Notes under the pieces: generated by a model
Told to the model about the DNA's origin: nothing
What the model saw: the letters and a program-made list of their open reading frames with translations, nothing else
Database searches by the model: none
NCBI GenBank assembly: GCA_016214995.1
Contig: JACRML010000009.1
Span: 15,155 to 79,154, forward strand
Length of the DNA stretch: 64,000 nucleotides
Direction of reading: 5' to 3'
Source: Deltaproteobacteria bacterium
Lineage (GTDB): Bacteria; Desulfobacterota; GWC2-55-46; UBA9637
Made by a program: the position numbers and the translations under genes
Part shown: positions 2,651 to 64,000 of the stretch, piece by piece
How positions within the stretch are numbered: the first letter of the stretch is position 1
Layout of the letters: each line of letters opens with the position of its first letter

Positions 2651-3805
2651 ATGGAGCGGAGCGACATGGCTGTAGCCTTTGAAAATATAAAAACAGGTAT
2701 TGATATATTAAGACAATTCTTGGTTCCAAAGATGTTTACGGTCAAACTTCTTGAGTTTGCAGAAAGTGAGGGAATACTTTCTGTTATGCGAGAGACAGGC
2801 AATTCTCCGGTAAGGACATTCGGGGGTGGGTCTGACAATTTGTGGACACGAGAAGAGTTTTATAGCGCTGTTCATAGGAGGCTGGGGTATGAGACAGGGA
2901 ATGCTGTAAGGAAAAGAATGTTGGCAATTCTGCTGGATTTTCTTGAAGAGTGTGGTCATATTTCTCAGAAAAAACCTGGCATTTATACATATAATGCAGA
3001 TGCCAAGACAACGTCGCCCCTTTCCAGCGAAGACATGGAGGTAATGAGAGAAATATTTGGTGATCAGTCTATGTTTTTTGATAAGTGTATAGAATATGCA
3101 GGTGATTTTCTAAAAGGAAAGAATTATCTTTTTGGCTTTAATAAGGGTATGGAAGATGTATGGAATAGGTTTCTTGGCAATTATGAATTTAGTTTCGCAA
3201 GGGATGTGCTTCTTAAGCTGATGACTGTCGATACAATACCGGATTGCAATATATTGGACCTTTGCTACGGGACAGGACATGGTCTGGAGCGTATATGCAG
3301 GGATTTCCCTGACGCGGATATCACAGCAATAGATTTTACAGATGATATGAGACCGTTTGCAATGTCAAGGCTTGGCAAAGTTGCTTCAAAGGTCAAATGG
3401 ATTGACGCCGGCAGATGGAATGGCTTTGGAAGTAATCTTCCTTTTGAGGTCATGGTTTTTGATATGATATTCTTCTCGTGTGGTGACCCATATATACCAG
3501 AGCATTTGCGTGAGGGTGTATACAGGGATATATTCAGGGTTTTGAAACCAGGTGGAATCTTAGGTGTGATTGCGTGGGGTTATCCTGACAGGTCCAAAAG
3601 ACATATACAGAATGAATGGGTAAGAAGGGGTATATATATTCATGACTTCGCCGAAAGTGTGTGCAATGGATGGCATGGCTTCCGTGATATCGACAGCACC
3701 ATAAAAATGACCAGAAAAATAGGTTTTGTGGGCGCCAATGCCGTTTTTAATAATTTTTATATGCTTGATTCAGCTGTGTGGATGTTTAAAAGACCTGAGG
3801 TATGA
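2651..3805 (+). CDS. class I SAM-dependent methyltransferase with an N-terminal domain of unknown function (alternative start ATG 2666, with GGAG RBS)
   Basis: Motif I ILDLCYGTGHGL; Rossmann-like MT core; 4-nt overlap with the downstream KS. Confidence 0.7.
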   Translation: MERSDMAVAFENIKTGIDILRQFLVPKMFTVKLLEFAESEGILSVMRETGNSPVRTFGGGSDNLWTREEFYSAVHRRLGYETGNAVRKRMLAILLDFLEECGHISQKKPGIYTYNADAKTTSPLSSEDMEVMREIFGDQSMFFDKCIEYAGDFLKGKNYLFGFNKGMEDVWNRFLGNYEFSFARDVLLKLMTVDTIPDCNILDLCYGTGHGLERICRDFPDADITAIDFTDDMRPFAMSRLGKVASKVKWIDAGRWNGFGSNLPFEVMVFDMIFFSCGDPYIPEHLREGVYRDIFRVLKPGGILGVIAWGYPDRSKRHIQNEWVRRGIYIHDFAESVCNGWHGFRDIDSTIKMTRKIGFVGANAVFNNFYMLDSAVWMFKRPEV

Positions 3806-9922: not shown

Positions 9923-12902
9923 GAGGCTAAAGGCAAAAGGCTTTAGGTTTGTAATTTTTCTTTTCAACCTATTTTTCTTCAGCCTACAGCATGATATTTC
10001 CCACACAGCCAATCTTGACACCTCTTTTCAGTTTTCCACTATAGAAACAGAACATTTCTCCATCCACTTTCATCAGGGGCTTGAGGGTGCGGCTCACAAA
10101 GCTGCAGCTATTGCAGAGGAAGCGTACTATACGCTTGCCACAGGATTTAATTGGGAGCCAATGGAAAAGACGCAGATGGTCCTGATAGATAACTCCGACT
10201 TTACCAATGGCTGGGCAAAGGTGCTTCCCTATAATACGATTTACATACAGGTTGTGCCGCCGTTAGTAGACATGACAATAGGCGAATATGAAGACTGGCT
10301 CAAGATACTCATAATTCACGAATACAGTTATATACTCACAACTGACCCTGCAATGGGATATTCAAAAATAATGAGGCGCATATTCGGCAAGCCTCTTCCA
10401 GGAGGAGACCCCTTTTCCTTTCTTATGTTTATTGCTGCCGGGCCGCCGAATGTGTTTTTACCGAGATGGTGGCACGAGGGTATTGCAACATGGTCCGAGA
10501 CAGAGCATACAAAAGTAGGCAGAGGTAAAAGCACATATTATGAAATGATAATCAGAATGGCAGTTGCGGATGATAATATTCCGACAGTTGATAAGATAAA
10601 CGGTGAAGTCCCATACTGGCCTGATGGGCATATGCCCTATATATTTGGCCTAAGGCTTCAAAAATATATTGCAGATAAGTATGGTAGAGAGGCGCTGGGA
10701 AAGCTTAATTTAAAGCATGCCGGAAGATTCCCATATTTTTTAAACGGCGCACCCCAGAATTTGTTTGAAGGAGAAAGCTATATCTCCTTATATCGCGAGA
10801 TGGTGAAGGACTTAAAAACAGAAGAGAGGGAACAGATAGAGATATTAAAACAGGTGCCTTTTACACCATTTAAAATATTAAATATAAATGGTGAAATGCT
10901 TACCAATCCAAGATATTCTCCTGATGGCAGTATGATTGCATTCAATATGCGGGACCCACATGGGCATGAGGCAATTATGATAATGAACAAGGACGGTACA
11001 GATGTAGCAGGGTCTGTCAGAAGGCTTTATTCAGACCACATCATTGCATGGTCGCCGGACAGCGAATCTATATATTTCAGCCAGGCAGAGGTTAACAGAG
11101 GGTTTAATATCTATCAGGATTTATATTCGTATGACATAAAGAAGGCAAAGCTTAAAAGACTAACCCAGGGCCTTCGCATAAAAGAGCCTGATATATCGCC
11201 GGATGGGAAAAAAATTGCTGTTATTTTAAGCGACAGAGGCAATCAAAACCTTGCCCTCCTTACTTTTGAAAGATACAAACCCAAATTGGAAATAATCCTT
11301 CCTTCACCCCGCTTTGAAAAAGATAGGCTGCTGGGATTGCGGGTTTCTGGTCCAAGGTGGTCTCCGGATGGCAATTTTATTGCCTATTCTGTAACAACCA
11401 ATAATGGGAAGAGCAGCCTGTACATTTACGATACAATAGAAAAAACCCATAAACAACTCTTTGAAGATGCTGGGAACAATGCATATCTCACATGGTCAAG
11501 GGATAGTAAATATATTATCTATATGTCAGATAAGACGAGAGTATACAACCTTTTTGCATATTCAATGGAGCAAGACAGGCAGTATCAGATTACCCATATA
11601 CTTGGCGGCGCATTCCAGCCTGATGTTTCCACAGACGGCAAAGAGATTATTTTTTCCAGTTATAATTCCAGAGGTTTTAAGATTGCTAAAATTGAATATA
11701 ACCCTGAAAAGTGGATGACAATACCCAGTCCTACGATAAAGCCATATTGGAATGAGGAAAGTTCAGAGTTGAGAGTTGAGAGTTCGGAGTTGAAACCAAA
11801 AATCCAAAACCCGCAATCCGAAATTAAATCCGACTCTAATCCTTATTCGGCCCTTAATAGCCTCCTTCCCAGATTCTGGCTGCCTACACTTTCTAGTGAT
11901 CACGATGGCGCGGTAATTGGCGCTTTGACTTTTGGTCAGGATGTGCTTGGTTATAATACATATTATCTTAAATTGGATTATGGCGTTGAAAGCAGCGAGA
12001 TATACTACGATGCGGTATATATGAATGACTATATATATCCTACGCTGAGGCTGCGGACATACACAACACCTGTCTTATATTCGGATTTTCTTGAGAGAGG
12101 CGATTACTATGAATTAAACAGAAGTATTATTTTCAGCATGTCTCTGCCAATAAATTATTTAGAGTCGCACTACAGGTTTATTCTTGGCTATCATTTGCAA
12201 AAGCAGGAGGCATTAAGCGGCCTTACAAATAACAAGTTCAATGAGGTAGACGTATTTCATGGCCGTCGCGACAATGTATTCGCAGGCATTGAATTTTCCA
12301 ACAGTCTAAAATATCCATATTCCATAAGCCATGAAGAGGGTCGTAATATAAGTTTTTTATATAGATATTATAGCAAATACATAGGGAGTGATATTAATTC
12401 AAGGGAATACATTGCATCGTATTCGGAATATTTTCTCCTTCCCTTTTCAGGTTCAATGAGGCACAACGTAATTTATCTTAATCTTAAGGGTGCTGCATCG
12501 GATGGTGACAGGATAAACCAACAGGCATTTCAACTGGGCGGTTATTCTTCTCAATCAGAATTTCCCTTACGCGGTTATCCTTCAAGATTTGCAGCAGGGC
12601 AATATGTGGCTACAGGTACTTTGGAGTACCGTGCGCCTTTATGGTATATATTCCATGGTATAAATACAAAACCTTTTTTCTGGGACAGATTGCACGGCGC
12701 TGTTTTTACCGATGCAGGAGAGGTATGGGATGACACCAGAGATTTTTCATCTAGCAGATTAAAGGTAGGTGCTGGTATAGAGGTAAGACTTGATATGACC
12801 ATAGGTTACTTGCTGGAGATTACTCCTACCCTTGGTATTGCTCACGGCTTTAACCAGAACGGAGAGACACAGGTCTATTTTACCATATACACAAATCTTT
12901 AA
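9906..12902 (+). CDS. large secreted protein: signal peptide, TolB-like PD40 beta-propeller repeats, and a C-terminal Omp85/BamA-like beta-barrel-like region (start uncertain; the ORF is open from 9858)
   Basis: Multiple SPDG/SRDS...I.F/Y PD40-like repeats. C-terminus: RGYPSRF...GAVFTDAGEVW...GAGIEVRL...QVYFTIYTNL (Omp85-like). In-frame (agagttg)n at 11764-11794. Confidence 0.5.
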   Translation: MMYLSKRLKAKGFRFVIFLFNLFFFSLQHDISHTANLDTSFQFSTIETEHFSIHFHQGLEGAAHKAAAIAEEAYYTLATGFNWEPMEKTQMVLIDNSDFTNGWAKVLPYNTIYIQVVPPLVDMTIGEYEDWLKILIIHEYSYILTTDPAMGYSKIMRRIFGKPLPGGDPFSFLMFIAAGPPNVFLPRWWHEGIATWSETEHTKVGRGKSTYYEMIIRMAVADDNIPTVDKINGEVPYWPDGHMPYIFGLRLQKYIADKYGREALGKLNLKHAGRFPYFLNGAPQNLFEGESYISLYREMVKDLKTEEREQIEILKQVPFTPFKILNINGEMLTNPRYSPDGSMIAFNMRDPHGHEAIMIMNKDGTDVAGSVRRLYSDHIIAWSPDSESIYFSQAEVNRGFNIYQDLYSYDIKKAKLKRLTQGLRIKEPDISPDGKKIAVILSDRGNQNLALLTFERYKPKLEIILPSPRFEKDRLLGLRVSGPRWSPDGNFIAYSVTTNNGKSSLYIYDTIEKTHKQLFEDAGNNAYLTWSRDSKYIIYMSDKTRVYNLFAYSMEQDRQYQITHILGGAFQPDVSTDGKEIIFSSYNSRGFKIAKIEYNPEKWMTIPSPTIKPYWNEESSELRVESSELKPKIQNPQSEIKSDSNPYSALNSLLPRFWLPTLSSDHDGAVIGALTFGQDVLGYNTYYLKLDYGVESSEIYYDAVYMNDYIYPTLRLRTYTTPVLYSDFLERGDYYELNRSIIFSMSLPINYLESHYRFILGYHLQKQEALSGLTNNKFNEVDVFHGRRDNVFAGIEFSNSLKYPYSISHEEGRNISFLYRYYSKYIGSDINSREYIASYSEYFLLPFSGSMRHNVIYLNLKGAASDGDRINQQAFQLGGYSSQSEFPLRGYPSRFAAGQYVATGTLEYRAPLWYIFHGINTKPFFWDRLHGAVFTDAGEVWDDTRDFSSSRLKVGAGIEVRLDMTIGYLLEITPTLGIAHGFNQNGETQVYFTIYTNL

Positions 12903-50688: not shown

Positions 50689-52485
50689 TTGCCAAAACGG
50701 ACAGACATAAAAAAGATCTTAATAATCGGCGCGGGGCCGATTATCATCGGCCAGGCGTGCGAATTCGATTATTCCGGCACTCAGGCGTGCAAGGCTTTGA
50801 AGGAGGAGGGGTATGAGGTTGTGCTCATCAACTCAAATCCGGCAACCATTATGACCGACCCCGGTTTTGCGGACAAAACCTACATTGAGCCGATTACGCC
50901 GGAGATTGTTGAGAAGATAATTGAAAAGGAAAGACCGGATGCGTTGCTGCCGACTATGGGTGGACAGACCGCGCTCAATACTGCGGTGGCTTTGGCGGAG
51001 TCAGGTGTTCTGGAAAAATATAAGGTTGAACTTATCGGCGCAAAACTTCCGGCAATAAAAAAGGCGGAGGACAGGGAACTCTTTAAAGAGGCGATGAAAC
51101 GGATCGGTCTTGAAGTTCCAGCCAGCGGTTATGCCAAGACGCTTACTGATGCGCAGAGCATCATGGAGGAGATGAGCTATCCTGCAATCATCCGGCCATC
51201 CTTTACCCTTGGCGGAACAGGCGGCGGCATTGCCTACAACAGCGAGGAATTCAAGGACATGGTGCAATACGGTCTTGACGCAAGCCCTTACAGCGAACTG
51301 CTGATTGAAGAATCTGTTATAGGCTGGAAGGAATATGAGCTTGAGGTGATGAGGGATACTAAAGACAATGTGGTAATTATCTGCTCTATTGAAAATTTTG
51401 ACCCGATGGGCGTTCACACCGGCGATTCCATAACCGTTGCACCCGCGCAGACGCTCACGGATAAAGAATATCAGATTATGCGTGATGCAGCGTTAAAGAT
51501 TATCCGGGAGATTGGCGTTGATACCGGCGGCTCCAATATCCAGTTTTCCCTGAATCCCGACAACGGCAAGATGTATGTGATAGAGATGAATCCCCGCGTC
51601 TCCCGTTCATCCGCGCTTGCGAGCAAGGCAACCGGCTTTCCCATTGCAAAGATTGCGGCAAAATTGGCAGTGGGTTATACCCTTGATGAGATACCGAATG
51701 ACATAACAAAAAAGACGCCGGCATGTTTTGAGCCTACCATTGATTATGTTGTCACAAAGATTCCGAGATTCACCTTTGAAAAATTTCCGCAGGCTGACTC
51801 AACCCTTACAACACAGATGAAGTCTGTGGGTGAAGTAATGGCAATAGGCAGAACATTTAAAGAATCTCTGCAAAAGGCGCTCAGGTCTCTTGAGATAGGA
51901 AGCTATGGCTTTGAGATAAAGAAATCGGTAAGATATGAGAAACCCGGTGATTATATAGAAGTAATTAAGGAAAAACTCAGAGTGCCTAATTGGGAAAGGC
52001 TTTGGTATATAGGGGATGCATTCAGATGCGGCGTGACTGTTGATGAGATATTTGAGTTGTCAAAAATAGATAGATGGTTTTTGCATAATATAAGGGAGAT
52101 TGTGGAGTTTGAGGAGGATATCAGAAGTCAGAAGTCAGAAGTCAGAAGTCAGAAGCAAGAAAAAAATCTTGCCTCTTGCCCCTTGCCTCTTGCCTCCGAT
52201 TTATTACGGCAGGCAAAGGAACTTGGGTTTTCTGACAGGCGAATAGCCCGGCTTCTATCAACAGGAAAGAAGTTAGGCGGCAAAAGGTGCGATGTTCCTT
52301 CTGGCAAAGATTTAGAAGTAAAAGAACATGAAATCAGAAAAAAAAGAATTGATGCCGGTATCCTGCCTGCCTATAAAACAGTTGATACCTGCGGCGCAGA
52401 ATTTGAGGCGTTTACGCCGTATCTGTATTCAACTTATGAAAAACCATACTATAAGATTCAAAATTCAAAATTCAAAATTCCTTGA
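50689..52485 (+). CDS. carB: carbamoyl-phosphate synthase large subunit, N-terminal half (split carB), with heptamer insertions
   Basis: [28 protein letters not shown]...; ATP-grasp 1 and oligomerisation domain; (agaagtc)n and (cttgcct)n at 52121-52198; C-terminal tail encoded by (aaaattc)n. Confidence 0.9.
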
Positions 52486-54224
52486 ATATTGAATCTGGAA
52501 TCTTGAATTCTGCTGAAAGCAGATATGACTGCGAAGCAAATCCTACCAACCGCAAGAAGGTGATAATCCTCGGCAGCGGGCCGAACAGAATAGGTCAGGG
52601 CATTGAGTTTGACTATTGCTGTGTGCATGCATCATTTGCTTTAAAAGAAGAAGGGATTGAAACAATCATGGTTAACTGTAATCCTGAGACTGTTTCAACA
52701 GATTATGACACATCGGACAGGCTTTATTTTGAGCCCCTTACATTTGAAGATGTTATGAATATAATTGAAAAGGAAAAACCGTATGGCATTATTGTCCAAT
52801 TTGGCGGGCAAACTCCCCTGAAACTTGCAGTGCCTCTTGAAAAGGCAGGGGTGAAAATACTTGGCACATCCCCTGATTCAATTGATATTGCAGAAGACAG
52901 GGAGAGATTTGATAAACTCCTTACAAAACTAAATTTAAAAAGACCTGAAAGCGGTGTGGCCCGCTCAATTGATGAAGCAATTAATATTGCATTGGAAATT
53001 GGCTATCCTGTAATGGTCAGGCCGTCGTATGTTCTCGGCGGCAGGGCAATGGAAATAGTTTACACAGAGGATAGCTTGAAAGGTTATATGACAAGGGCAG
53101 TGGAGGCATCTCCCGAACATCCTGTGCTTATTGATAAGTTCTTGAATAATGCGACAGAGGTTGATGTTGACTGTATAAGTGATGGAAAGGATGTTGTTAT
53201 TGGCGGGATTATGGAGCATATTGAAGAGGCAGGCATTCATTCGGGCGATTCAGCTTGCTCCATACCGCCACACTCTCTTAACCCGAAGGTAATTGGCAAC
53301 ATAAGAAAGCAAACAATAGCCATGGCAAAAGAGTTGAATGTTGTCGGTTTGATGAATGTTCAGTTTGCAGTGAAAAAAAATCCCCCCATACCCCCCTTTG
53401 AAAAAGGGGGGATTGAGGAGGGATTAAACAAGGGTCAAGGGTCAGAAAAATACGAAATATATGTGCTTGAGGTCAATCCCAGGGCGTCAAGGACTGTGCC
53501 GTTTGTAAGCAAGGCCATAGGCAAGCCTTTGGCAAAAATTGCGGCAAAGGTAATGATAGGCAAGACACTCAAAGAACTTGGATTTACAAAAGAGGTTGTG
53601 CCGCAGCACACATCGGTCAAGGAATCGGTATTCCCATTTATAAAATTCCCTGGTGTTGATACTATACTCGGCCCTGAGATGAAATCAACAGGCGAGGTTA
53701 TGGGCATAGATGCGGATTTCGGCAAGGCCTTTGCCAAGGCGCAGATTGCGGCAGGGACTAAACTCCCTTTAAAAGGCACAGTATTTATCAGCGTTAAAGA
53801 TGATGATAAAGATGAGGTTATACCGGCTGCAAAGAAATTAGAGGGCATGGGCTTTAAAATCATTGCAACAAGCGGGACTGCGCAGCATCTGAAAGCAAAA
53901 GGGGTTAATGCAGAATTTGTGTATAAGGTTGGCGAGGGCAGGCCGCATATAGTGGACAAAATAAAGAGCGGCGAGATAGCAATGGTGATAAACACATCTT
54001 TTGGGGCAAAGTCTGTGGCAGATTCATATTCAATAAGACGTTCAGCCCTCGTGTATAATGTTCCATATTTTACAACCGTTGCCGGCGCAAAGGCCGCGGC
54101 ACAGGGTATAACATCGTTAATCAGAGAGGGGCTTAAGGTAAAACCGATACAGGAATATCATAAGGCGAGTCAAGAGTCAAAAGTCAAGAGTCAAAGAAAT
54201 CTTTTACTTATAACTTCTGACTAA
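52482..54224 (+). CDS. carB: carbamoyl-phosphate synthase large subunit, C-terminal half (split carB; TTG start overlapping the upstream stop as TTGA)
   Basis: [25 protein letters not shown]...; ATP-grasp 2 and MGS-like domain; C-terminus encoded by (agtcaag)n at 54167-54196. Confidence 0.85.
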
Positions 54225-54228
54225 CGAA

Positions 54229-54300
54229 GCTGTTGACAAAGTCATCAACAGCCTTGATTACACAGATTAGAAAAAATGATTACACAGATATTTCAAGGAG
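54229..54300 (+). promoter_or_regulatory. ~60-bp element with repeated TGTGTAATC/GATTACACA motifs upstream of recG; reverse-complement copy at 63160-63230
   Basis: gctgttgacaaagtcatcaacagccttgattacacagattagaaaaaatgattacacagat; additional ggtgtaatc and tctgtgtaatc copies at 54303-54335. Confidence 0.6.
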
Positions 54301-54393
54301 TTTTAATCGGTGTAATCTAATCTTTAATCTGTGTAATCAGAGATTGTTGAGTTTGTCAACAATCTCTAATGACCTATCACTTGTTATTCTCAT

Positions 54394-56952
54394 ATGGATT
54401 CAACCGCACACGATCCATTTTTTCAAATCATTTCAAACCTTCTCAAGCCGTTATTGTTTGCATCAAAAGATAATTTTGCCCATCTGTCTGCAGTAAAGGA
54501 TATTGAACCCCTTGTGCAAAATCTTTGCCGTCAGGCCCTGGCTTTTCCCATATCAGAGAATAATGTCAAAGAACTTCAAAATGTGTTTGAAGGTTTTGAT
54601 TCATTGGCACTGGAGGGAAAGAAAGATAAGATAAGAAAAGCGCTGGAAATTATTAAAGTAATCAGCAATCAGTGGTCAGTGGTCAGTATATTTGCTGAAA
54701 GCCGAAAGCTGAATGTTGAATGCTACTCTTTAGATGAGATAAAAACCAGATTATCCAAAATTTCAACTCCTCTCAAGGCAGTTAAAGGCATCGGGCCGAA
54801 ACTGGGTGAGGTGTTCAGAAAAAAAGGATTAGAGACCGTGGAAGATATTTTATACTGGCTGCCCATCAGATACGAAGACAGGCGGCAGATAAAAAAGATT
54901 GCCCAATTGAGATTCGGGGTAAGAGAGGTTGCCTCCGGTGAGATAATGGCTATGAGGGAGGTTTTTTACGGCAGGCGCAAAGTCTTTGAGATTAGTATGG
55001 GTGACGGGAGCGGGTTTTTAAGACTGAAATGGTTTAATTACAGGCTTCCGCTTATAAAAAAGAGATATAAGATTGCCCAGAGATTGGTGGTCTATGGAGA
55101 GATTGGAAGCTTTGGCGGACAGAAAGAGATAATCCACCCTGATGTGGATATTTTCGAAAAGGATGAGGAACTGGATGCTATTAACTTTAATGCCATTGTA
55201 CCGGTCTATTCACAAATCGGGAATTTGCATCAGAAGACTTTGCGGAAGATAATGAGAAAGATAGTTGAAGAATATGTGTGTTGCGCAACCGGCGCTGTGC
55301 CTTCGTATATGCTGAAACGTTACGGGCTCATGGAATTGCCAAATGCTTTGGCTGAGGCCCATAAACCCAACTCCAAATTCCCAACTCCTAACCCAGAACT
55401 GTCCAAAGGCTGGCTGCCGAAAAAGAGCCTTGTATTTGATGAATTGTTTTGTCTTGAGATTGGGCTTGCGTTAAAAAAAGGCAATACGGAGAGAGAAAGC
55501 GGTATTGCGTTCACTGTGGGGACAGATTTGAAATCTCTCCCCATGGTTGAAAATTTTAAAAATATGCTGCCATTTGAATTAACCACGGCGCAGGAGAGGG
55601 TTGTCTCTGAGATAAAAAGGGATATGGCGGCACCTCATCCCATGAATCGCCTGATACAGGGCGATGTTGGCTCAGGCAAGACAGTTGTTGCATTCATTGC
55701 CAGCCTCATTGCCATTGAAAATAATTATCAATCTGCAATCATGGCTCCGACAGAGATACTTGCTGAGCAGCATTATCTTAATATCCATAGATACGCAGAT
55801 GGCATTGGCATAAGGATTGCATTTTTAAGCGGCAGCCTTACAAAATCTGAGAAGACAGGAATTCTGGATGGTATAAAAACAGGGAGGATAGACCTTGCCA
55901 TAGGCACTCATGCGCTTATTCAGGAGGATGTGGAATTTAAAAAGCTTGGCCTTGTAATTGTGGATGAGCAGCACAGATTTGGCGTTATGCAGAGGGCAAT
56001 GCTGAAAAAAAAGGGGCAAGGGGTAAGCCTGTCCCCGCAGGCATTAAGCAGGGAGGGCAAGGGGCAAGAAAGAAGTGGACTTGACTCCGGCTGCTTGACC
56101 CTGACCCCTGATGTATTAGTTATGACCGCCACACCGATACCGAGGACATTGGCCATGACCGTTTTTGGCGACCTTGATGTTTCGGTTATTGATGAATTGC
56201 CGCCAGGGAGAAGGCCGATTAAAACAAAGGCTCTCAGAGGAAATGGAAGAGATCAGGTTTATAAGATTATAAGAGGAGAACTTGCAAAAGGGAGGCAGAG
56301 CTATATTGTCTATCCGCTTATAGAGGAGTCGGAGGAGCTTGATTTAAGAGATGCTACGAAGATGGCAGAGCATTTGCAGAAGGATATATTCCATGAGTAT
56401 AAGATTGGTCTTTTGCATGGACGGATAAAGGCAGAGGAAAAGGAAAATATTATGAAGGCCTTTAAGTCAAAAGAAATAAATATACTCGTATCTACAACGG
56501 TTATAGAAGTTGGAATAGATGTGCCGAATGCAACAGTTATGGTAATTGAACATGCGGAACGGTTCGGCCTTTCACAGCTTCATCAACTCCGGGGCAGAGT
56601 GGGAAGGGGAGATCACAACTCGTATTGTATTCTCCTTGCTGATAAAATTGGCTCCGACGATTCCTACAAAAGATTAAAGGTTATGGAAGAGACTAATGAC
56701 GGTTTCAGAATAGCAGAAGAGGATTTGAATATCCGAGGGCCAGGAGATTTTCTCGGCACAAGGCAGTCCGGGCTCCCTGATTTCAGGGTTGCCAACCTTT
56801 TAATAGATGCTTCAATACTTCAGAAGGCTAGGGATGAGGCATTCAATATAATAAAAATAGACCCAGCCCTTGTAATGCCGGAGCATGCGGCTTTAAAGGA
56901 GATTGTAAAGATGCGCTGGAAGGGAAGGATGGAACTGGCACAAATTGGGTAG
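54394..56952 (+). CDS. recG: ATP-dependent DNA helicase RecG (with N-terminal extension and an in-frame G-rich repeat insertion)
   Basis: Wedge region LKAVKGIGPKLGEVF..LPIRYED; helicase motifs GDVGSGKT, VDEQHRFGV, TATPIPRTL; insertion at ~56010-56110 (ggcaagg repeats). Confidence 0.9.
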   Translation: MDSTAHDPFFQIISNLLKPLLFASKDNFAHLSAVKDIEPLVQNLCRQALAFPISENNVKELQNVFEGFDSLALEGKKDKIRKALEIIKVISNQWSVVSIFAESRKLNVECYSLDEIKTRLSKISTPLKAVKGIGPKLGEVFRKKGLETVEDILYWLPIRYEDRRQIKKIAQLRFGVREVASGEIMAMREVFYGRRKVFEISMGDGSGFLRLKWFNYRLPLIKKRYKIAQRLVVYGEIGSFGGQKEIIHPDVDIFEKDEELDAINFNAIVPVYSQIGNLHQKTLRKIMRKIVEEYVCCATGAVPSYMLKRYGLMELPNALAEAHKPNSKFPTPNPELSKGWLPKKSLVFDELFCLEIGLALKKGNTERESGIAFTVGTDLKSLPMVENFKNMLPFELTTAQERVVSEIKRDMAAPHPMNRLIQGDVGSGKTVVAFIASLIAIENNYQSAIMAPTEILAEQHYLNIHRYADGIGIRIAFLSGSLTKSEKTGILDGIKTGRIDLAIGTHALIQEDVEFKKLGLVIVDEQHRFGVMQRAMLKKKGQGVSLSPQALSREGKGQERSGLDSGCLTLTPDVLVMTATPIPRTLAMTVFGDLDVSVIDELPPGRRPIKTKALRGNGRDQVYKIIRGELAKGRQSYIVYPLIEESEELDLRDATKMAEHLQKDIFHEYKIGLLHGRIKAEEKENIMKAFKSKEINILVSTTVIEVGIDVPNATVMVIEHAERFGLSQLHQLRGRVGRGDHNSYCILLADKIGSDDSYKRLKVMEETNDGFRIAEEDLNIRGPGDFLGTRQSGLPDFRVANLLIDASILQKARDEAFNIIKIDPALVMPEHAALKEIVKMRWKGRMELAQIG

Positions 56953-60526: not shown

Positions 60527-62266
60527 CTATCGCAGTCTGATACCGGTTTCCAATTCTATATTTTCCTTTCCATATCTTATCGTTAAATGTCCTTTTTCAT
60601 TAACGCAAAATGTTATATAAACATCTTCATTTACAGGTTCTTTGAATGACAAGGTTACAATGTTAAAGCCCTTTAATTCTATATCTTTAGTCTGTTTTAT
60701 TTCTTGTTTTATAAATTCTACACCTGATTCCATTACCCATCTTCTCGTAACCATACTTTCAGGGACTTCAAATAATTCCAGATATATTTCATTTTGTATG
60801 CCTAATGTCCTTGCAGGTGCGAGCTTGAAGGTTTTTTCTAACGGTAAAGATTCGCCGCTTTCAAATATAAGTTTATAAGAATGTGGGACATCCTTATTTT
60901 TTGTTGTGTAACGGACGGCATATGCCATTCCTATATGTCTATCTATGATGACATTCCTTGTACCGTATAGTGCTGCTCCTCGTACAACAGCAGACAGAGG
61001 GCTGTGGTCATAGACAGCATTTTGTTCACGAAGTTTAGGGAAGATGTGGTCTATTTTTTCTTTGAATGAAGGTATCTGAGAGGAACCTCCTGTCAATAGA
61101 ACGGTTTCTATCATATCCTTTCTTATGCCTATCTTTTCTGCCTTCCGTATAGTATACGATATTGCACGGTCGATAATCTTATAAAAATCATGTTTGGCCA
61201 GTATATCCTCAAGGTCATCTCTTGATACCTTACATACCTCGAGCCCATTCCATTCAAACGGTGCTATCTTATATTCCGAGAGCGCTATCTTTATCTCTTC
61301 TGCTTTAAGTATGAGTTTGTCATAGAGGGTAGATTCTTTATCGGATATCCCTATCTTTTTTGATAGATACTCTGCAAGCCAGATATCTATGTCATGGCCG
61401 CCAAGCGTCTTTGCTCTGTCAGGTTTAGCTATTACATGAATTTCGTCGATATTTAATCTCAGTATCATTGTATTGTGGGTGCAGCCTCCGAAATCTATAA
61501 GCACGACAATCTTATCCCTTTCTTCAGCTACCTGATAACCAATGGCTGCTGCAAGCGGCTCTTCGATAAATTCTATCTTTACGCCTTTAAAAATATTTTC
61601 CGCAATCTCTTTCATTGTTTTTCTGTAGTTTTGAAAACCAACCGGCACTGTAAGATAGAGCATATCTGCTATACTGCTTGAGAAAAATAAAAACCGTCCA
61701 GCAGTAATTGCCTTTTTAAGATGCCGATAAAGCATACGGATATAACTCTCCATATACTCCTTGCTCTTTGGATTGCCGTCCATCAGCATCTTTTTTATAT
61801 CGGTTATAGGAGATTTTCCCATGGCCTCCATGCCGATAGAATTTGCATTAGCACTTAAGAGAGTTGGTATACTATATGTATCACCAAAACGTTTTGATAT
61901 GGAGTCTAATAAGATGAAATCAGGCTGTGCTGTTTGGCTTCGCCTCATAATAACCGTATTGGTTGCTCCGAGGTCTATAGCAATGCAATCTTTTGGCGTA
62001 ATCTTTTCATTAATTGATGGATAGTGGCCGTAAGAAACAGGGTGGTGTTCGCTTACAAATGCAGGCCGTTCTATCTCTTTTCCGTGATATGCGGTGCGGA
62101 GGCCTTCCATGTGGCCGACTATCTTCCTGGCAGCCAGCCTTAATTCTAATGGTTGAATCCAGATATGGGTGTAAGGCTGGAGGGTTTCTACCAGCCGTAT
62201 ATCATTTAACTGCAATCCTGATCGTTCTATTTCTTTAGCAAGAGCCATGGCAGTCAAACCTGCCAA
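60527..62266 (-). CDS. non-canonical Hsp70-like (actin/ASKHA-fold) ATPase with ~100-aa N-terminal extension
   Basis: Phosphate-1 IAIDLGATNT, phosphate-2 VLIDFGGCTHNT, adenosine motif VLLTGGSSQIP (Hsp70 pattern); 579 aa; no canonical DnaK substrate-binding/lid. Confidence 0.6.
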   Translation of the reverse strand: MAGLTAMALAKEIERSGLQLNDIRLVETLQPYTHIWIQPLELRLAARKIVGHMEGLRTAYHGKEIERPAFVSEHHPVSYGHYPSINEKITPKDCIAIDLGATNTVIMRRSQTAQPDFILLDSISKRFGDTYSIPTLLSANANSIGMEAMGKSPITDIKKMLMDGNPKSKEYMESYIRMLYRHLKKAITAGRFLFFSSSIADMLYLTVPVGFQNYRKTMKEIAENIFKGVKIEFIEEPLAAAIGYQVAEERDKIVVLIDFGGCTHNTMILRLNIDEIHVIAKPDRAKTLGGHDIDIWLAEYLSKKIGISDKESTLYDKLILKAEEIKIALSEYKIAPFEWNGLEVCKVSRDDLEDILAKHDFYKIIDRAISYTIRKAEKIGIRKDMIETVLLTGGSSQIPSFKEKIDHIFPKLREQNAVYDHSPLSAVVRGAALYGTRNVIIDRHIGMAYAVRYTTKNKDVPHSYKLIFESGESLPLEKTFKLAPARTLGIQNEIYLELFEVPESMVTRRWVMESGVEFIKQEIKQTKDIELKGFNIVTLSFKEPVNEDVYITFCVNEKGHLTIRYGKENIELETGIRLR

Positions 62267-63125
62267 TTATTTCAATATATTCAAATCTCTTTTTGACGGT
62301 GTAAAACTCCAGGGCCTGTTTTATTATCTGTTGGAGCAAAGGAAAGAATTCCGCCGTTTTTGGAATCTCCTGCAAAATATCAATTAATGCATGCTCTCTT
62401 GCAAACTGGTCATGTATGATGCTTGCTGCCTTGAAGGCCTCTGCCATTGCCTGCTTATATAAAGACAGATATTCTTCTGTTTTAGGGAGCTCTTTGGCTA
62501 TATAGAGAAGCGCATATTCCCTATAGTATGGTTCCTTTATGACACCTACGGCATCTATGGCCAGTTGAATTGCCTCTTTATAAAGATTTATAAATTCGCC
62601 TGTTTTGGGAAGCTCGCTGGCAATGCCAAGAAGTGTATATCTTCTATAAAAAGCGATATCACTTGACTTTGGAAGCTCCCATGCAATCTGATCCAGCGAG
62701 GCCTTTTTGCGATGAGGTGTCTCCGCAAGGTCAAGAAGCAGCCTCATTGCATAGATGCGCAGTTTTGTAAATTCTTCTGTTTGAGGAAGCTCCTTTGAAA
62801 TACGGAGAAGTTTGGTTTTTCTGTTTATCGGCTCTGTAATACCGTCTGCTGCCTCAATGGCCGATTCCGCTGCTTTTGAATATAAGGGCAGAAAATCCTT
62901 TACTGCCGGAATTTCTTTTAAGAAATCAAAAAGGACGTTTCTCTTCTCTTCAGGGTTCTCTAGTTTATTTATGACATCAAAGGTAAGCTGAAATAGAGGA
63001 ATAGCCTCAGACGTTTTTGGCAATTCTTTAATAACACGAAAAAGAATATCCATTTTCTCTTTAGAGTCTGAAGAATTGTGTAGGGCGTCTATTGTGTGTT
63101 TTATATGATTTTCCAGTTCTAGCAT
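62235..63125 (-). CDS. alpha-helical repeat protein with ~7 copies of a ~37-aa 'L..I.KELPKT.EF..LYK.A...A' repeat; translationally overlaps the Hsp70-like gene
   Basis: Repeats ISKELPQTEEF, IASELPKTGEF, IAKELPKTEEY, LQEIPKTAEF, etc.; 32-nt overlap with the downstream gene. Confidence 0.5.
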   Translation of the reverse strand: MLELENHIKHTIDALHNSSDSKEKMDILFRVIKELPKTSEAIPLFQLTFDVINKLENPEEKRNVLFDFLKEIPAVKDFLPLYSKAAESAIEAADGITEPINRKTKLLRISKELPQTEEFTKLRIYAMRLLLDLAETPHRKKASLDQIAWELPKSSDIAFYRRYTLLGIASELPKTGEFINLYKEAIQLAIDAVGVIKEPYYREYALLYIAKELPKTEEYLSLYKQAMAEAFKAASIIHDQFAREHALIDILQEIPKTAEFFPLLQQIIKQALEFYTVKKRFEYIEIIGRFDCHGSC

Positions 63126-63159
63126 CTTTCATTCATCCTAAACTCTAAGAGCTTGTTGA

Positions 63160-63230
63160 AAAACTTAACAATCTCTGTGTAATCATTTTTTATAATCTGT
63201 GTAATCAAGGCTGTTGATGACTTTTTCAGC
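63160..63230 (-). promoter_or_regulatory. second copy (reverse complement) of the TGTGTAATC-rich element, 35-100 nt upstream of the helical-repeat/Hsp70-like operon
   Basis: aacaatctctgtgtaatcattttttataatctgtgtaatcaaggctgttgatgactttttcagcagc; ~92% identical to the reverse complement of 54229-54300. Confidence 0.6.
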
Positions 63231-63801
63231 AGCCTGCTAATTTACTGAAACCTGTTTTGGTAATAACACCGTCCTTTCCAATGATAACCTCTACCTTTCC
63301 CGGCATACAAAAATCTATCTTACTGTAACGGCTGCTAAGGAAGTAAAATCTTTGGTTTGTTGAACCCCTTGCCAGAAGCGTAGTTTCTTTTTTTGATGCT
63401 ACATATCTGCCGTCTATCAGGACATCAATAAATCCGAGGCATAATCGGCACTCTGGTTTTTTTTCCAACTCTTTATAGGTAAACCCTGTATATACAACCG
63501 TGGAAAGCCCGTAGGTCTTTCTCGCTATTTTTAAAAGCTCATACAGACCATACGGCTGCATGAACGGTTCACCGCCACTTATTGTTATACCTTCTATACC
63601 ATTTAAAGGATATTTCTTTAATAGCTCGTCAGGCGAGTAAGGGTTGATTGTTTGAAATGAGTGAGTATCAGGATTAAAGCAGCCATGGCAATTTTTGTCG
63701 CAGCCCTGGAAAAAGAGCACCATTCTATTCCCTGGCCCGTTTACCTTTGAGATTGGTATTATAGAGTGTATGTTTATGTTGATGGGTATCGCATTAGGCA
63801 T
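63226..63801 (-). CDS. glycyl-radical-enzyme activating radical SAM protein, NrdG-like (anaerobic RNR activase; QueE-like not excluded)
   Basis: FFQGCDKNCHGCFNPDT (CxxxCxxC in the NrdG/PflA-type context); 191 aa. Confidence 0.5.
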   Translation of the reverse strand: MPNAIPININIHSIIPISKVNGPGNRMVLFFQGCDKNCHGCFNPDTHSFQTINPYSPDELLKKYPLNGIEGITISGGEPFMQPYGLYELLKIARKTYGLSTVVYTGFTYKELEKKPECRLCLGFIDVLIDGRYVASKKETTLLARGSTNQRFYFLSSRYSKIDFCMPGKVEVIIGKDGVITKTGFSKLAGC

Positions 63802-63817: not shown

Positions 63818-64000
63818 CTATCTCTCTGTGTCTACCTTAACCCGCACCTCTCTATCAAGTTCGCCTTTTTCAGTGAAGCTTTCCATTTTACCGAGCACCT
63901 TTGTTAAATGCTCTGCCACCTCCTTACAGTCTTTAAATACGCTTGAGTCTATCTCTATTTTGCCATCAGGAGTTATTCTTATTCTTATCTCTTTATCCAC
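63818..64000 (-). CDS. hypothetical protein, probably 5'-truncated by the window edge
   Basis: Open frame running to the window end; no recognisable motif. Confidence 0.25.
   Translation of the reverse strand: MDKEIRIRITPDGKIEIDSSVFKDCKEVAEHLTKVLGKMESFTEKGELDREVRVKVDTER

What the first reader, a model, noticed from the sequence alone, without database searches (positions are those of the whole stretch)
60527..63125. Operon of a helical 'ELPKT'-repeat protein and a non-canonical Hsp70-like ATPase
A 296-aa protein built from ~7 tandem ~37-aa helical repeats (consensus L..IAKELPKT.EF..LYK.A...A) overlaps by 32 nt a 579-aa protein with unmistakable Hsp70/actin-fold nucleotide-binding motifs (DLGATNT, DFGGCTHNT, LLTGGSSQIP). 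The second protein also has a unique ~100-aa N-terminal extension and a short beta-rich C-terminus instead of a DnaK substrate-binding domain and lid. There is no DnaJ or GrpE partner. The pair sits convergent to pgsA and downstream of a NrdG-like activase, and its upstream region carries the TGTGTAATC-rich element shared with recG. A dedicated repeat-protein and Hsp70-like two-component module of this kind is not a textbook chaperone operon.
Basis: partly seen in the sequence, partly recalled or inferred. Interest (0 to 1): 0.6.

Follow-up and report, generated by a model that had tools for sequence, protein, structure and literature searches.

The report
Split gene for solenoid-fused Hsp70 protein
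The two overlapping genes are one gene broken by a 68-base deletion; intact, it encodes an uncharacterised ~885-residue protein (helical-repeat arm fused to a lid-less Hsp70-type ATPase) that always sits in the same gene cluster in uncultured sediment and groundwater bacteria.

Summary
The sequence features are real: a 296-aa ORF with seven ELPKT-type helical repeats, and a 579-aa ORF with Hsp70 nucleotide-binding motifs that overlaps it by 32 nt. The "two-gene operon" reading is wrong. A sister contig (92.9% nt identity) and 77 of 79 species-level relatives encode both parts as one ~885-aa protein. The window differs by a single 68-nt frameshifting deletion at 62251-62253, either a recent lesion or a MAG assembly error.

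The intact protein has an N-terminal alpha-solenoid, a highly conserved helical connector, an Hsp70-type nucleotide-binding domain (NBD), and a beta-sandwich resembling the Hsp70 substrate-binding domain (SBDbeta) in fold only. There is no alpha-lid. It is far below the DnaK/HscA cutoffs, and no DnaJ or GrpE gene lies in the cluster.

The gene is the last core member of a conserved same-strand cluster: a soluble FtsH-like AAA+/M41 protease, a DUF1257-like protein, a DUF2997 protein, an NrdG-like radical-SAM activase, then this gene. All four upstream genes were present, in that order, in 50 of 50 loci with enough upstream sequence. I found no description of the family or cluster in three full-text searches. 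Its function is inferred only: probably a dedicated Hsp70-type remodelling or hand-over module with a built-in docking arm.

The parts
62280..63125 (-). 5' fragment of the split gene: N-terminal alpha-solenoid with seven ELPKT-type repeats, equivalent to residues 1-282 of the intact protein
   Evidence: ORF; motif statistics; AF2 helix pairs, most blocks at pLDDT 81-94; collinear with P0009 residues 1-291
62235..62279 (-). End of the 5' fragment: start of the linker (to residue 291), then five out-of-frame codons (CHGSC) and a TAA stop created by the frameshift
   Evidence: Translation compared with P0009; DNA
62251..62253 (-). Deletion junction. 68 nt present in sister contig L001 are missing here. 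They encode residues 292-315 (YFIAGEARRLTESKKIRYTKEKYA). Only 1 nt of microhomology flanks the junction.
   Evidence: MAFFT alignment of the gene to L001: a single 68-column gap and 92.9% identity elsewhere; coordinates
62063..62248 (-). 3' fragment, first part: remainder of the conserved helical connector (full-length residues 316-377), beginning at ATG 62248
   Evidence: connector helices 303-368; the most conserved segment of the family (mean column conservation 0.715)
60944..62062 (-). Hsp70/actin-fold nucleotide-binding domain (full-length residues 378-750) with phosphate-1, phosphate-2, connect and adenosine motifs
   Evidence: Pfam HSP70 73 bits; family profile aligns to DnaK NBD residues 9-360, E=2e-19; invariant motif residues; Foldseek E about 1e-18 to Hsp70 structures
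60527..60943 (-). C-terminal all-beta domain (full-length residues 751-888) plus stop codon: Hsp70 SBDbeta-like sandwich without an alpha-lid
   Evidence: AF2 of the domain alone, pLDDT 78.5 and pTM 0.69; Foldseek top hits almost all Hsp70 SBDs, probability 0.97-1.0, TM 0.45-0.54, E 0.0075-0.06; no sequence-level hit
63145..63236 (-). 92-nt repeat element inserted between the radical-SAM gene and the start of the split gene. It is absent in L001, rewrites the last codons of the radical-SAM gene, and replaces the usual overlapping stop/start with a 100-nt gap.
   Evidence: second copy near 54226-54300
63226..63801 (-). NrdG-like radical-SAM activase (191 aa; CX3CX2C and GGEP motifs), conserved immediate upstream partner
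   Evidence: Pfam Fer4_12 and Radical_SAM; TIGR02491 118.8 bits against a cutoff of 126.1; present upstream on the same strand in 68 of 69 loci
63818..64000 (-). 60-aa DUF2997-type protein, a conserved cluster member. The DUF1257-like and FtsH-like genes lie beyond the window edge.
   Evidence: DUF2997 hit in 24 of 24 family members, best E=4.4e-6; present in 66 of 67 loci; cluster maps

Best explanation
Window 60527-63125(-) is a single gene split into two ORFs by a 68-nt frameshifting deletion. The deletion is either a recent real lesion or a MAG assembly error.

Intact, the gene encodes an ~885-aa cytoplasmic protein of an uncharacterised family found in uncultured Deltaproteobacteria/Thermodesulfobacteriota and Nitrospirota. 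Its parts, in order, are a seven-repeat HEAT-like alpha-solenoid, a conserved helical connector, an Hsp70-type ATPase domain with its catalytic motifs intact, and a lid-less SBDbeta-like sandwich.

It is the last core gene of a conserved cluster, commonly with an overlapping stop/start: soluble FtsH-like AAA+/M41 protease, DUF1257-like protein, DUF2997 protein, NrdG-like radical-SAM activase, then the solenoid-Hsp70.

Inferred mechanism (my estimate about 0.3): this is a self-contained Hsp70-type ATP-driven clamp. The fused solenoid serves as a fixed docking arm, and possibly as an in-cis regulator, taking over the targeting and nucleotide-exchange roles that DnaJ and GrpE normally supply in trans. 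The protein would hold or remodel one dedicated client from the cluster (the radical-SAM enzyme or the DUF1257/DUF2997 pair) and hand it to, or protect it from, the FtsH-like protease.

Shown: the split, the fusion, the domain anatomy and the cluster conservation. Inferred: ATPase activity, the identity of the client, and the roles of the solenoid and the protease.
For: The split:
- There is one 68-nt gap against L001 and 92.9% identity elsewhere.
- P0009 (88% identical) reads straight through the junction.
- More than 100 homologs are about 885 aa.
- 77 of 79 genome loci are in a single frame, and the two exceptions break at other positions.
- Every other complete hit to the repeat domain is a fused 890-950-aa protein.
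- dN/dS against L001 is 0.23 and 0.24 for the two halves.

Anatomy:
- The AF2 full-length model gives the domain layout.
- Foldseek matches Hsp70 NBD+SBD structures.
- The C-terminal domain alone retrieves SBDbeta structures.
- The family profile aligns across the whole DnaK NBD.
- D407, G409-T413, E545, D567, G569, G570, T572 and T701-S705 are invariant.

Cluster:
- The radical-SAM gene is present in 68 of 69 loci, DUF2997 in 66 of 67, the 112-aa gene in 62 of 63, and the FtsH-like gene in 50 of 50. All four are in order in 50 of 50 loci.
- The commonest radical-SAM/fusion junction is a 4-nt overlap, in 26 of 64 loci.
- No DnaJ or GrpE gene lies in the cluster.
Against: - No reads are available, so a real deletion cannot be told apart from an assembly artefact.
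- pTM for the full-length model is 0.44, so the model says nothing about whether the solenoid contacts the NBD.
- The DUF1257 assignment is weak: 8 of 24 members, best E=0.0035.
- The functional model is built only from domain content and gene neighbourhood. No family member comes from a cultured organism, and I found no experimental literature.
- hrcA-grpE-dnaJ lies 7-9 kb away in two genomes, so help from trans co-chaperones is not excluded.
Confidence: 0.8

Rival explanations
1. The split is genuine and functional. In this lineage the solenoid and the Hsp70-like ATPase are made as two polypeptides that associate non-covalently.
For: - Both ORFs are otherwise intact, with dN/dS of about 0.23.
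- ATG 62248 is preceded by an AGGT Shine-Dalgarno-like sequence 9 nt upstream and overlaps the upstream stop by 14 nt, so coupled re-initiation is possible.
- The deletion begins in the low-confidence linker at residues 283-301.
Against: - The 93%-identical sister contig and 77 of 79 relatives are fused.
- The length difference is 68 nt, not a multiple of three.
- The deletion removes invariant E297 and the 90%-or-more conserved K305, K313 and Y314, and truncates the best-conserved segment of the family.
- No other complete stand-alone repeat protein exists among 1.84 billion representatives.
- The low dN/dS mostly reflects divergence that built up before a recent lesion.
Confidence: 0.1
2. 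The cluster is a biological-conflict (anti-phage or abortive) system. It would be analogous to the MoxR-vWA-FtsH ternary systems, with the Hsp70 taking the place of the MoxR-vWA chaperone pair and the radical-SAM enzyme plus a small protein acting as effector.
For: - Kaur et al. 2020 (PMC7159879) describe FtsH-containing systems that have a large all-alpha domain fused to the peptide-binding component, together with a radical-SAM enzyme and a standalone peptide. They also describe HSP70 in GTPase-centred systems.
- The ELPKT-like repeats weakly match the repeat arms of NACHT/KAP STAND NTPases.
- The AAA+ domain hits IetA models and the radical-SAM protein hits pVip models weakly.
Against: - No MoxR, vWA, GTPase or recognisable toxin gene is in the cluster.
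- The PADLOC hits are generic AAA+ and radical-SAM similarity, and the fusion, p112 and p60 proteins have no meaningful defence-model hits.
- The components are unusually well conserved: the FtsH-like protein is about 77% identical across species. The cluster appears at one locus per matched contig among housekeeping genes, with no integrases or other mobile-element genes among the called flanking genes. That pattern is unlike variable defence islands.
Confidence: 0.1
3. It is an ordinary chaperone paralog (DnaK, HscA or HscC type), or an actin-like (MreB/ParM-type) cytoskeletal ATPase, with no special partner.
For: - The best NCBIfam hits are HscA and DnaK, and Pfam MreB_Mbl scores 34 bits.
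- Some JGI annotations call homologs 'actin-like ATPase involved in cell morphogenesis' or 'DnaK'.
Against: - Scores are 8-12 times below the equivalog cutoffs: 88 against 708 for HscA, 70 against 822 for DnaK, and 36 against 293 for MreB.
- Structure hits are to Hsp70, not MreB, and an SBDbeta-like domain is present.
- The fused solenoid, the connector and the cluster are all conserved.
Confidence: 0.03

Closest known systems
Canonical Hsp70 chaperones (DnaK, HscA, BiP)
   Same: - ASKHA nucleotide-binding domain with conserved phosphate-1, phosphate-2, connect and adenosine motifs.
- The family profile aligns over the whole DnaK NBD.
- The NBD is followed by a beta-sandwich that retrieves Hsp70 SBDbeta structures.
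   Different: - About 17% identity to Hsp70 structures, and far below the NCBIfam cutoffs.
- No alpha-helical lid.
- The consensus at the NBD-SBD junction (TRDIxDRHL) lacks the hydrophobic linker I recall from DnaK (from memory).
- About 375 extra N-terminal residues (solenoid plus connector).
- No DnaJ or GrpE gene in the operon. Instead it is co-encoded with a radical-SAM enzyme, DUF1257/DUF2997 proteins and an FtsH-like protease.
Truncated or atypical Hsp70s such as Ssz1 of the ribosome-associated complex, and lid-less DnaK constructs
   Same: Top structural matches include Ssz1 (6sr6, 5mb9) and DnaK lacking SBDalpha (5obu), for both the full-length and the C-terminal models. Like these, the protein has an NBD plus a short or partial SBD and presumably works with a fixed partner.
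   Different: Ssz1 is eukaryotic and pairs with a J-protein (zuotin). Here the partner-like helical domain is fused in cis, and no J-domain is present.
Armadillo/HEAT-repeat Hsp70 nucleotide-exchange factors (HspBP1, Fes1, Sil1); this comparison is from memory
   Same: In both cases an alpha-solenoid acts together with an Hsp70 NBD. A solenoid fused to an Hsp70 that has no GrpE gene in its cluster could play a similar role in cis.
   Different: Not tested. No Pfam repeat family matches the solenoid, the model's inter-domain geometry is unreliable (pTM 0.44), and no separate fold search of the solenoid was possible.
MoxR-vWA-FtsH ternary conflict systems (Kaur, Burroughs, Iyer, Aravind 2020, PMC7159879)
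   Same: An FtsH-type AAA+ component, a peptide-binding chaperone component carrying a large N-terminal all-alpha domain, and a radical-SAM enzyme with a small standalone protein.
   Different: - MoxR and vWA, the defining pair, are absent.
- The FtsH-like protein here carries an M41 protease domain with an HEAGH motif.
- The cluster is highly conserved and sits among housekeeping genes.
Cyanobacterial DUF2997 - DUF1257 (Ycf35) - ferredoxin Fed7 cluster
   Same: A DUF2997 and DUF1257 gene pair sits next to a small iron-sulfur protein gene (PMC4284462). Here a DUF1257-like and DUF2997 pair sits next to a [4Fe-4S] radical-SAM gene.
   Different: The gene order and the iron-sulfur partner differ, the cyanobacterial cluster has no Hsp70 or protease, and the DUF1257 assignment here is weak. 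The function of that cluster is also unknown.

Membership tests
Hsp70 superfamily (Pfam PF00012) | Score above the Pfam gathering threshold | tested here: met
   73 bits against a cutoff of 20.6, but only model positions 138-372 of 599 are matched. P0009 scores 74.5 bits.
Hsp70 superfamily (Pfam PF00012) | Actin-fold NBD with phosphate-1 (DxGxT), connect (EPxAAA), phosphate-2 (DxGGGT-like) and adenosine (GGxxxxP) motifs | tested here: met
   IDLGATNT, EPLAAAIGY, IDFGG(S/C)T and LLTGGSSQIP are present, with the key residues invariant in 46 sequences. The family profile aligns to DnaK NBD residues 9-360.
Hsp70 superfamily (Pfam PF00012) | Substrate-binding beta-sandwich (SBDbeta) after the NBD | tested here: inconclusive
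Hsp70 superfamily (Pfam PF00012) | Alpha-helical lid (SBDalpha) | tested here: not met
   The protein ends at the last beta-strand (E879-886 of 888). There is no helix after residue 742.
DnaK / HscA / HscC equivalogs (NCBIfam) | Whole-protein score at or above the curated cutoff | tested here: not met
   HscA 88.5 against 708.55; DnaK 70 against 822.55; PRK11678 41 against 331. The full-length P0009 gives the same picture.
DnaK / HscA / HscC equivalogs (NCBIfam) | Dedicated J-protein and/or GrpE encoded alongside | tested here: not met
   None in the cluster in the window, L001, L081 or L082. hrcA-grpE-dnaJ lies 7-9 kb away in L081 and L082 and is presumably the housekeeping set.
MreB / actin-like cytoskeletal ATPases | Score at or above the NCBIfam MreB cutoffs; structural neighbours are MreB or ParM | tested here: not met
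   35.7 against 293 and 34.1 against 365.75. All 50 top Foldseek hits are Hsp70s.
HEAT / ARM / TPR repeat families | Match to a curated repeat model | tested here: not met
   No Pfam family for the 296-aa ORF at E<=0.1, and no repeat family for P0009 at E<=1.
HEAT / ARM / TPR repeat families | Solenoid of antiparallel helix pairs with a period of about 37-47 residues | tested here: met
   AF2 predicts seven helix pairs, most blocks at pLDDT 81-94, with a period of 37-41 residues.
MoxR-vWA-FtsH ternary systems (PMC7159879) | MoxR AAA+ and vWA co-chaperone pair | tested here: not met
   No such genes are in the cluster or within +/-10 kb in L081 and L082, or on the L001 contig.
MoxR-vWA-FtsH ternary systems (PMC7159879) | FtsH-type AAA+ component with an inactive N-terminal AAA copy | not tested
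   An active FtsH-type AAA domain (Walker A GVPGSGKS) plus an M41 domain (HEAGH) are present. The nature of the first ~230 residues was not determined.
NrdG, anaerobic RNR activase (neighbouring gene) | TIGR02491 score at or above cutoff, and an NrdD partner gene | tested here: not met
   118.8 against a cutoff of 126.1. No NrdD was found among the ten largest other ORFs (481-1014 aa) of the window, nor among called genes within +/-10 kb in L081 and L082. The rest of each genome was not searched.
DUF2997 (60-aa neighbour) | Pfam PF11211 match | tested here: inconclusive
   All 24 members hit it as the top family (best E=4.4e-6). The window copy scores 20.2 bits, below the 24.1 cutoff.

The most novel reading that the evidence does not exclude
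The conserved cluster (soluble FtsH-like protease, DUF1257-like protein, DUF2997 protein, NrdG-like radical-SAM activase, solenoid-Hsp70, with or without a TPR protein) is an undescribed machine. In it a J-protein- and GrpE-independent Hsp70, carrying its own solenoid co-chaperone in cis, controls the maturation, repair or regulated destruction of a radical-SAM enzyme or small-protein client. That would be a new functional class of Hsp70 system linking chaperone action to radical or iron-sulfur chemistry in anaerobes.
Probability: 0.25. Interest if true: 0.75.

Novelty: new variant of a known kind. Interest (0 to 1): 0.5.

Why it matters
For this window the result is corrective. The two ORFs should be annotated as one disrupted gene, not as an operon, so no conclusions should be drawn from the pairing or the 32-nt overlap.

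Beyond the window, the work defines a conserved and apparently undescribed Hsp70 architecture: a solenoid and connector fused to the NBD, a lid-less SBDbeta-like domain, and no J or GrpE gene in the operon. It is found in at least 79 species-level genomes. It always comes with a soluble FtsH-type protease, a DUF1257/DUF2997 pair and an NrdG-like radical-SAM activase.

If the chaperone really works without trans co-chaperones on one dedicated client, it would be a compact model for how Hsp70 specificity and cycling can be hard-wired. It would also give a first functional handle on the widespread DUF1257 (Ycf35) and DUF2997 proteins.

Tried and rejected
- Programmed frameshifting or a conserved split. 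Rejected because the break is a 68-nt deletion relative to a 93%-identical sister contig, and 77 of 79 relatives are in a single frame.
- Rarity of the repeat protein. The word-indexed search returned only 7 hits and missed the fused full-length proteins. The exhaustive search and the ATPase search showed this was a search artefact.
- Sequence-level SBD homology. The C-terminal profile had no significant hit against PDB sequences.
- Retrieving the window's own contig beyond position 64000. P0001 and P0157 are not on record. That the FtsH-like gene lies on the same contig is inferred from the matching contig length (91,314 bp) and source label.
- Defence-system models. PADLOC gave only generic AAA+ (IetA) and radical-SAM (pVip) similarity.
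- Glycyl-radical substrate in the cluster. The conserved GDxRVV motif of the 112-aa protein lacks the glycine of the RVxG motif, so it was not pursued (sequences; motif from memory).
- Similarity between the extra C-terminal tail of the radical-SAM protein and DUF2997. hhalign probability was 5.8%, so this was rejected.
- NrdD in the window. None found.
- Literature. Searches on DUF2997/DUF1257, on Hsp70 + radical SAM + FtsH, and on atypical bacterial Hsp70 paralogs found no description of this family or cluster.
- The last homolog search, on the FtsH-like protein, was saturated by the same family at 76-97% identity and revealed no wider context.
Full report
**1. What is in the window**

ORF listing confirms a 296-aa ORF at 62235..63125(-) and a 579-aa ORF at 60527..62266(-), overlapping by 32 nt. 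They are flanked upstream by a 191-aa ORF (63226..63801) and a 60-aa ORF (63818..64000), and downstream by a convergent 200-aa ORF.

Pfam and NCBIfam identify the 579-aa ORF as a divergent Hsp70/actin-fold ATPase:
- HSP70 scores 73 bits, covering only residues 205-435, and MreB_Mbl scores 34 bits.
- HscA scores 88 bits against a cutoff of 708, and DnaK 70 against 822.

The 296-aa ORF matches nothing. The upstream ORF is an NrdG-like radical-SAM protein (TIGR02491 118.8 against 126.1), and the downstream one is a CDP-alcohol phosphatidyltransferase.

The repeat claim holds. There are seven [EI][LI]P[KQA][TSV] motifs, spaced 37-41 residues apart with one 21-residue gap. Residue shuffles gave a mean of 0.018.

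**2. The two ORFs are one gene**

Homologs of the 579-aa ORF are almost all 880-930 aa long and cover the query end to end. Their extra ~310 N-terminal residues are the ELPKT-repeat protein. P0009 (88% identical) begins MLELENHIK..., like the 296-aa ORF. It reads ...IIGRFD-YFIAGEARRLTESKKIRYTKEKYA-MALAKEIERSG... where the window has ...IIGRFDCHGSC* in one frame and MALAKEIERSG in another.

The contig encoding P0009 (L001) is syntenic with the window. Aligning the gene at DNA level gives 92.9% identity and exactly one gap: 68 nt are missing from the window between C62253 and G62251, with 1 nt of microhomology. Because 68 is not a multiple of three, the reading frame shifts. The upstream frame then runs five codons to a TAA, and the downstream frame is open from a TTG/ATG just before the junction. 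This explains the overlap.

The split is not a conserved feature:
- Of 79 species-level loci found in GTDB genomes, 77 carry the gene in one frame. The two exceptions (L049, L070) break elsewhere.
- An exhaustive phmmer search of 1.84 billion representatives with the repeat ORF found only 33 hits. Apart from the window's own 296-aa product, the hits are either fused 890-950-aa proteins or shorter chains that look like fragments.
- The first, word-indexed search (7 hits) had simply missed the fused proteins.

dN/dS against L001 is 0.23 for the repeat part, 0.24 for the ATPase part and 0.15 for the neighbouring radical-SAM gene. The gene was therefore under purifying selection for most of the divergence. 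The lesion is either recent or an assembly artefact, and without reads I cannot decide which.

The deleted 24 residues (292-315) include invariant E297 and the nearly invariant K305, K313 and Y314. Function is therefore probably impaired if the deletion is real.

**3. A second lineage-specific change**

Relative to L001, the window has a 92-nt insertion at 63145..63236, between the radical-SAM gene and the start of the split gene. It carries two GATTACACAG repeats and hairpin-forming ends. It rewrites the last residues of the radical-SAM protein and replaces a 7-nt overlap with a 100-nt gap. About 70 nt of the element recur just upstream of recG, near 54226-54300.

**4. Anatomy of the intact protein**

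AlphaFold2 on a 46-sequence family alignment (mean pLDDT 77.5) gives the following layout:
- Residues 1-280 form a solenoid of seven helix pairs (most blocks at pLDDT 81-94), with the LPKT motifs as the four-residue inter-helix loops.
- Residues 283-301 form a low-confidence linker.
- Residues 303-368 form a helical connector.
- Residues ~378-750 form an actin-fold NBD.
- Residues 757-886 form an all-beta domain.

The NBD keeps the Hsp70 catalytic signature. IDLGATNT, EPLAAAIGY, IDFGGST and LLTGGSSQIP are present, with the key residues invariant. The family profile aligns to Mycoplasma DnaK NBD residues 9-360 at E=2e-19.

Foldseek on the whole model returns only Hsp70s (E about 1e-18). The alignments are 535-580 columns long to targets containing NBD plus SBD, against 394 columns for an NBD-only target.

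I modelled the C-terminal 144 residues alone (pLDDT 78.5, pTM 0.69, ten strands). They retrieve almost exclusively Hsp70 substrate-binding domains (DnaK, BiP, Ssz1, Kar2) at probability 0.97-1.0 and TM 0.45-0.54. The E-values are marginal (0.0075-0.06) and identity is about 10%. A sequence profile finds nothing. I therefore read it as an SBDbeta-like sandwich lacking the alpha-lid, at moderate confidence.

No Pfam repeat family matches the solenoid. Its weak distant matches are to the repeat arms of NACHT/KAP STAND NTPases. Neither the fusion protein nor the FtsH-like protein has a hydrophobic segment suggesting a membrane anchor.

**5. Genomic context: a conserved cluster**

ORFs from the 79 loci were compared with the window's and L001's neighbours. 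The results are below.

| Upstream gene, same strand | Loci with it / loci with enough upstream sequence |
|---|---|
| NrdG-like radical-SAM gene | 68 / 69 |
| 60-aa gene | 66 / 67 |
| 112-aa gene | 62 / 63 |
| ~711-aa AAA+ plus Peptidase_M41 gene | 50 / 50 |
| All four, in the same order | 50 / 50 |

Further points on the cluster:
- The commonest radical-SAM/fusion junction is a 4-nt overlap, in 26 of 64 loci.
- Gene calls from three contigs, two of them from members only about 52-56% identical, show the same arrangement. L081 and L082 also have a 143-aa TPR protein downstream, which is present in 31 of 71 loci.
- pgsA and the lipid A genes downstream are conserved only in close relatives.
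- All 24 tested members of the 60-aa family hit DUF2997 (best E=4.4e-6). The 112-aa family hits DUF1257 weakly (8 of 24, best E=0.0035).
- The FtsH-like protein has a Walker A motif (GVPGSGKS) and an HEAGH zinc site. It scores 190 bits against the FtsH cutoff of 600, so it is not the housekeeping FtsH.
- The FtsH-like protein is the most conserved cluster member, at about 77% identity.
- The window MAG's own copy (P0157, 97% identical to L001's) is reported from a contig of the same length as the window's source contig. It therefore most likely lies just beyond position 64000, which is an inference.
- No NrdD was found in the window, or within 10 kb in L081 and L082.

Every genome carrying the family is an uncultured MAG. 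By my count of the record titles they are roughly 41 'Deltaproteobacteria', 17 Thermodesulfobacteriota and 10 Nitrospirota-type, plus a few unclassified. Many come from groundwater or aquifer-sediment projects, judging by isolate names.

**6. How it most likely works**

Shown so far:
- The protein is a single polypeptide.
- It has Hsp70-type ATPase motifs, an SBDbeta-like domain, no lid and a fused solenoid.
- It sits in a tight cluster, often with overlapping stop/start codons, alongside a radical-SAM activase, two small proteins and a soluble AAA+ protease.
- No J-protein or GrpE gene is in the cluster.

Inferred (about 0.3): the protein is a dedicated Hsp70-type clamp.
- Its solenoid provides the fixed docking surface, and possibly the nucleotide-exchange or regulatory function, that DnaJ, GrpE or armadillo-type exchange factors supply in trans. 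The comparison with HspBP1, Fes1 and Sil1 is from memory and untested.
- Its client would be one of the cluster proteins, either the iron-sulfur radical-SAM enzyme or the DUF1257/DUF2997 pair.
- The FtsH-like protease would act downstream as an unfoldase or degrader.

Two observations hint at an iron-sulfur or redox theme but prove nothing. The best NCBIfam similarity is to the iron-sulfur chaperone HscA. Cyanobacteria have a DUF2997-DUF1257-ferredoxin cluster (PMC4284462).

**7. Rivals**

- **A functional two-polypeptide split** is possible. There is a Shine-Dalgarno-like AGGT 9 nt before ATG 62248, the stop and start overlap, and the deletion starts in the flexible linker. It is disfavoured by the 68-nt length, the loss of conserved residues and the absence of any natural stand-alone version.
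- **A conflict-system reading** draws on the FtsH ternary systems of Kaur et al. 2020, which have an all-alpha domain fused to the peptide-binding component, a radical-SAM enzyme and a standalone peptide. The defining MoxR-vWA pair is absent, PADLOC gives only generic hits, and the cluster is unusually conserved and embedded among housekeeping genes.
- **A canonical DnaK, HscA, HscC or MreB identity** is excluded by the scores and the structure hits.

**8. Novelty and verdict**

Public annotation calls these proteins 'Hsp70 family protein', 'AAA family ATPase' or 'hypothetical'. Three full-text searches found no description of the family or the cluster, although those searches cover only open-access literature.

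The window's feature is a disrupted copy of a new architectural variant of Hsp70 within an undescribed conserved cluster. Its central interpretation, an operon of two proteins, is an artefact of the frameshift. Its intuition that the repeat part and the ATPase belong together is correct, in the stronger sense that they are fused.

Interest is 0.5. The locus itself is a broken gene, but the family and its cluster are a real, conserved unknown that can be tested.

Noticed in passing
window 63145-63236; second copy near window 54226-54300, with an inverted GATTACACA at 54329-54339: A 92-nt repeat element carrying two GATTACACAG direct repeats and hairpin-forming ends (GCTG(C/T)TGA...TCAACAGC) is inserted here relative to sister contig L001. 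About 70 nt of it recur in the intergenic region upstream of recG. It looks like a small MITE- or REP-like mobile element.
   Followed up: partly
window 50689-52485 and 52482-54224 (+): The carbamoyl-phosphate synthase large subunit appears as two ORFs (598 and 580 aa) overlapping by 4 nt, each with a preATP-grasp and an ATP-grasp domain. This could be a natural split carB or another frameshift.
   Followed up: no
L049 (around 10300-10321) and L070 (around 2964-3006): Two other family members have frame changes at different positions, near residue 114-120 and residue 350-383. This is consistent with sporadic MAG errors or pseudogenisation rather than a conserved split.
   Followed up: partly
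L008:1-2420: This is the only locus with ample upstream sequence that lacks the radical-SAM, DUF2997 and 112-aa genes upstream of the fusion gene, so it is an exception to the cluster rule.
   Followed up: no
L081:19850-22655; L082:18530-21374: An hrcA-grpE-dnaJ operon lies 7-9 kb downstream of the cluster in two distant members. It is probably housekeeping synteny, but it means trans co-chaperones are encoded nearby.
   Followed up: no
P0140, P0141 (hits): ELPKT-like repeats weakly match (E from 1e-12 to 1e-4, multiple stretches) the repeat arms of 800-1700-aa proteins. The two examined, P0140 and P0141, are NACHT- and KAP-type STAND NTPases, so this repeat type is used elsewhere as a sensor or docking module.
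   Followed up: partly
L081:12856-13287, L082:12864-13295; family C-terminus (P0009 residues 885-888): A 143-aa TPR protein follows the fusion gene on the same strand in 31 of 71 loci, and the fusion protein ends in a conserved ...RLQ tail (L887 invariant). This recalls TPR co-chaperones that bind Hsp70 C-terminal tails, a comparison made from memory. The window and L001 lack this TPR gene.
   Followed up: no
window 54394-56952 (+) compared with L001 13210-15396: The longest recG ORF in the window is 852 aa, against 728 aa called in the sister contig. The extra N-terminal stretch starts right after the repeat element and may simply be an over-extended ORF.
   Followed up: no
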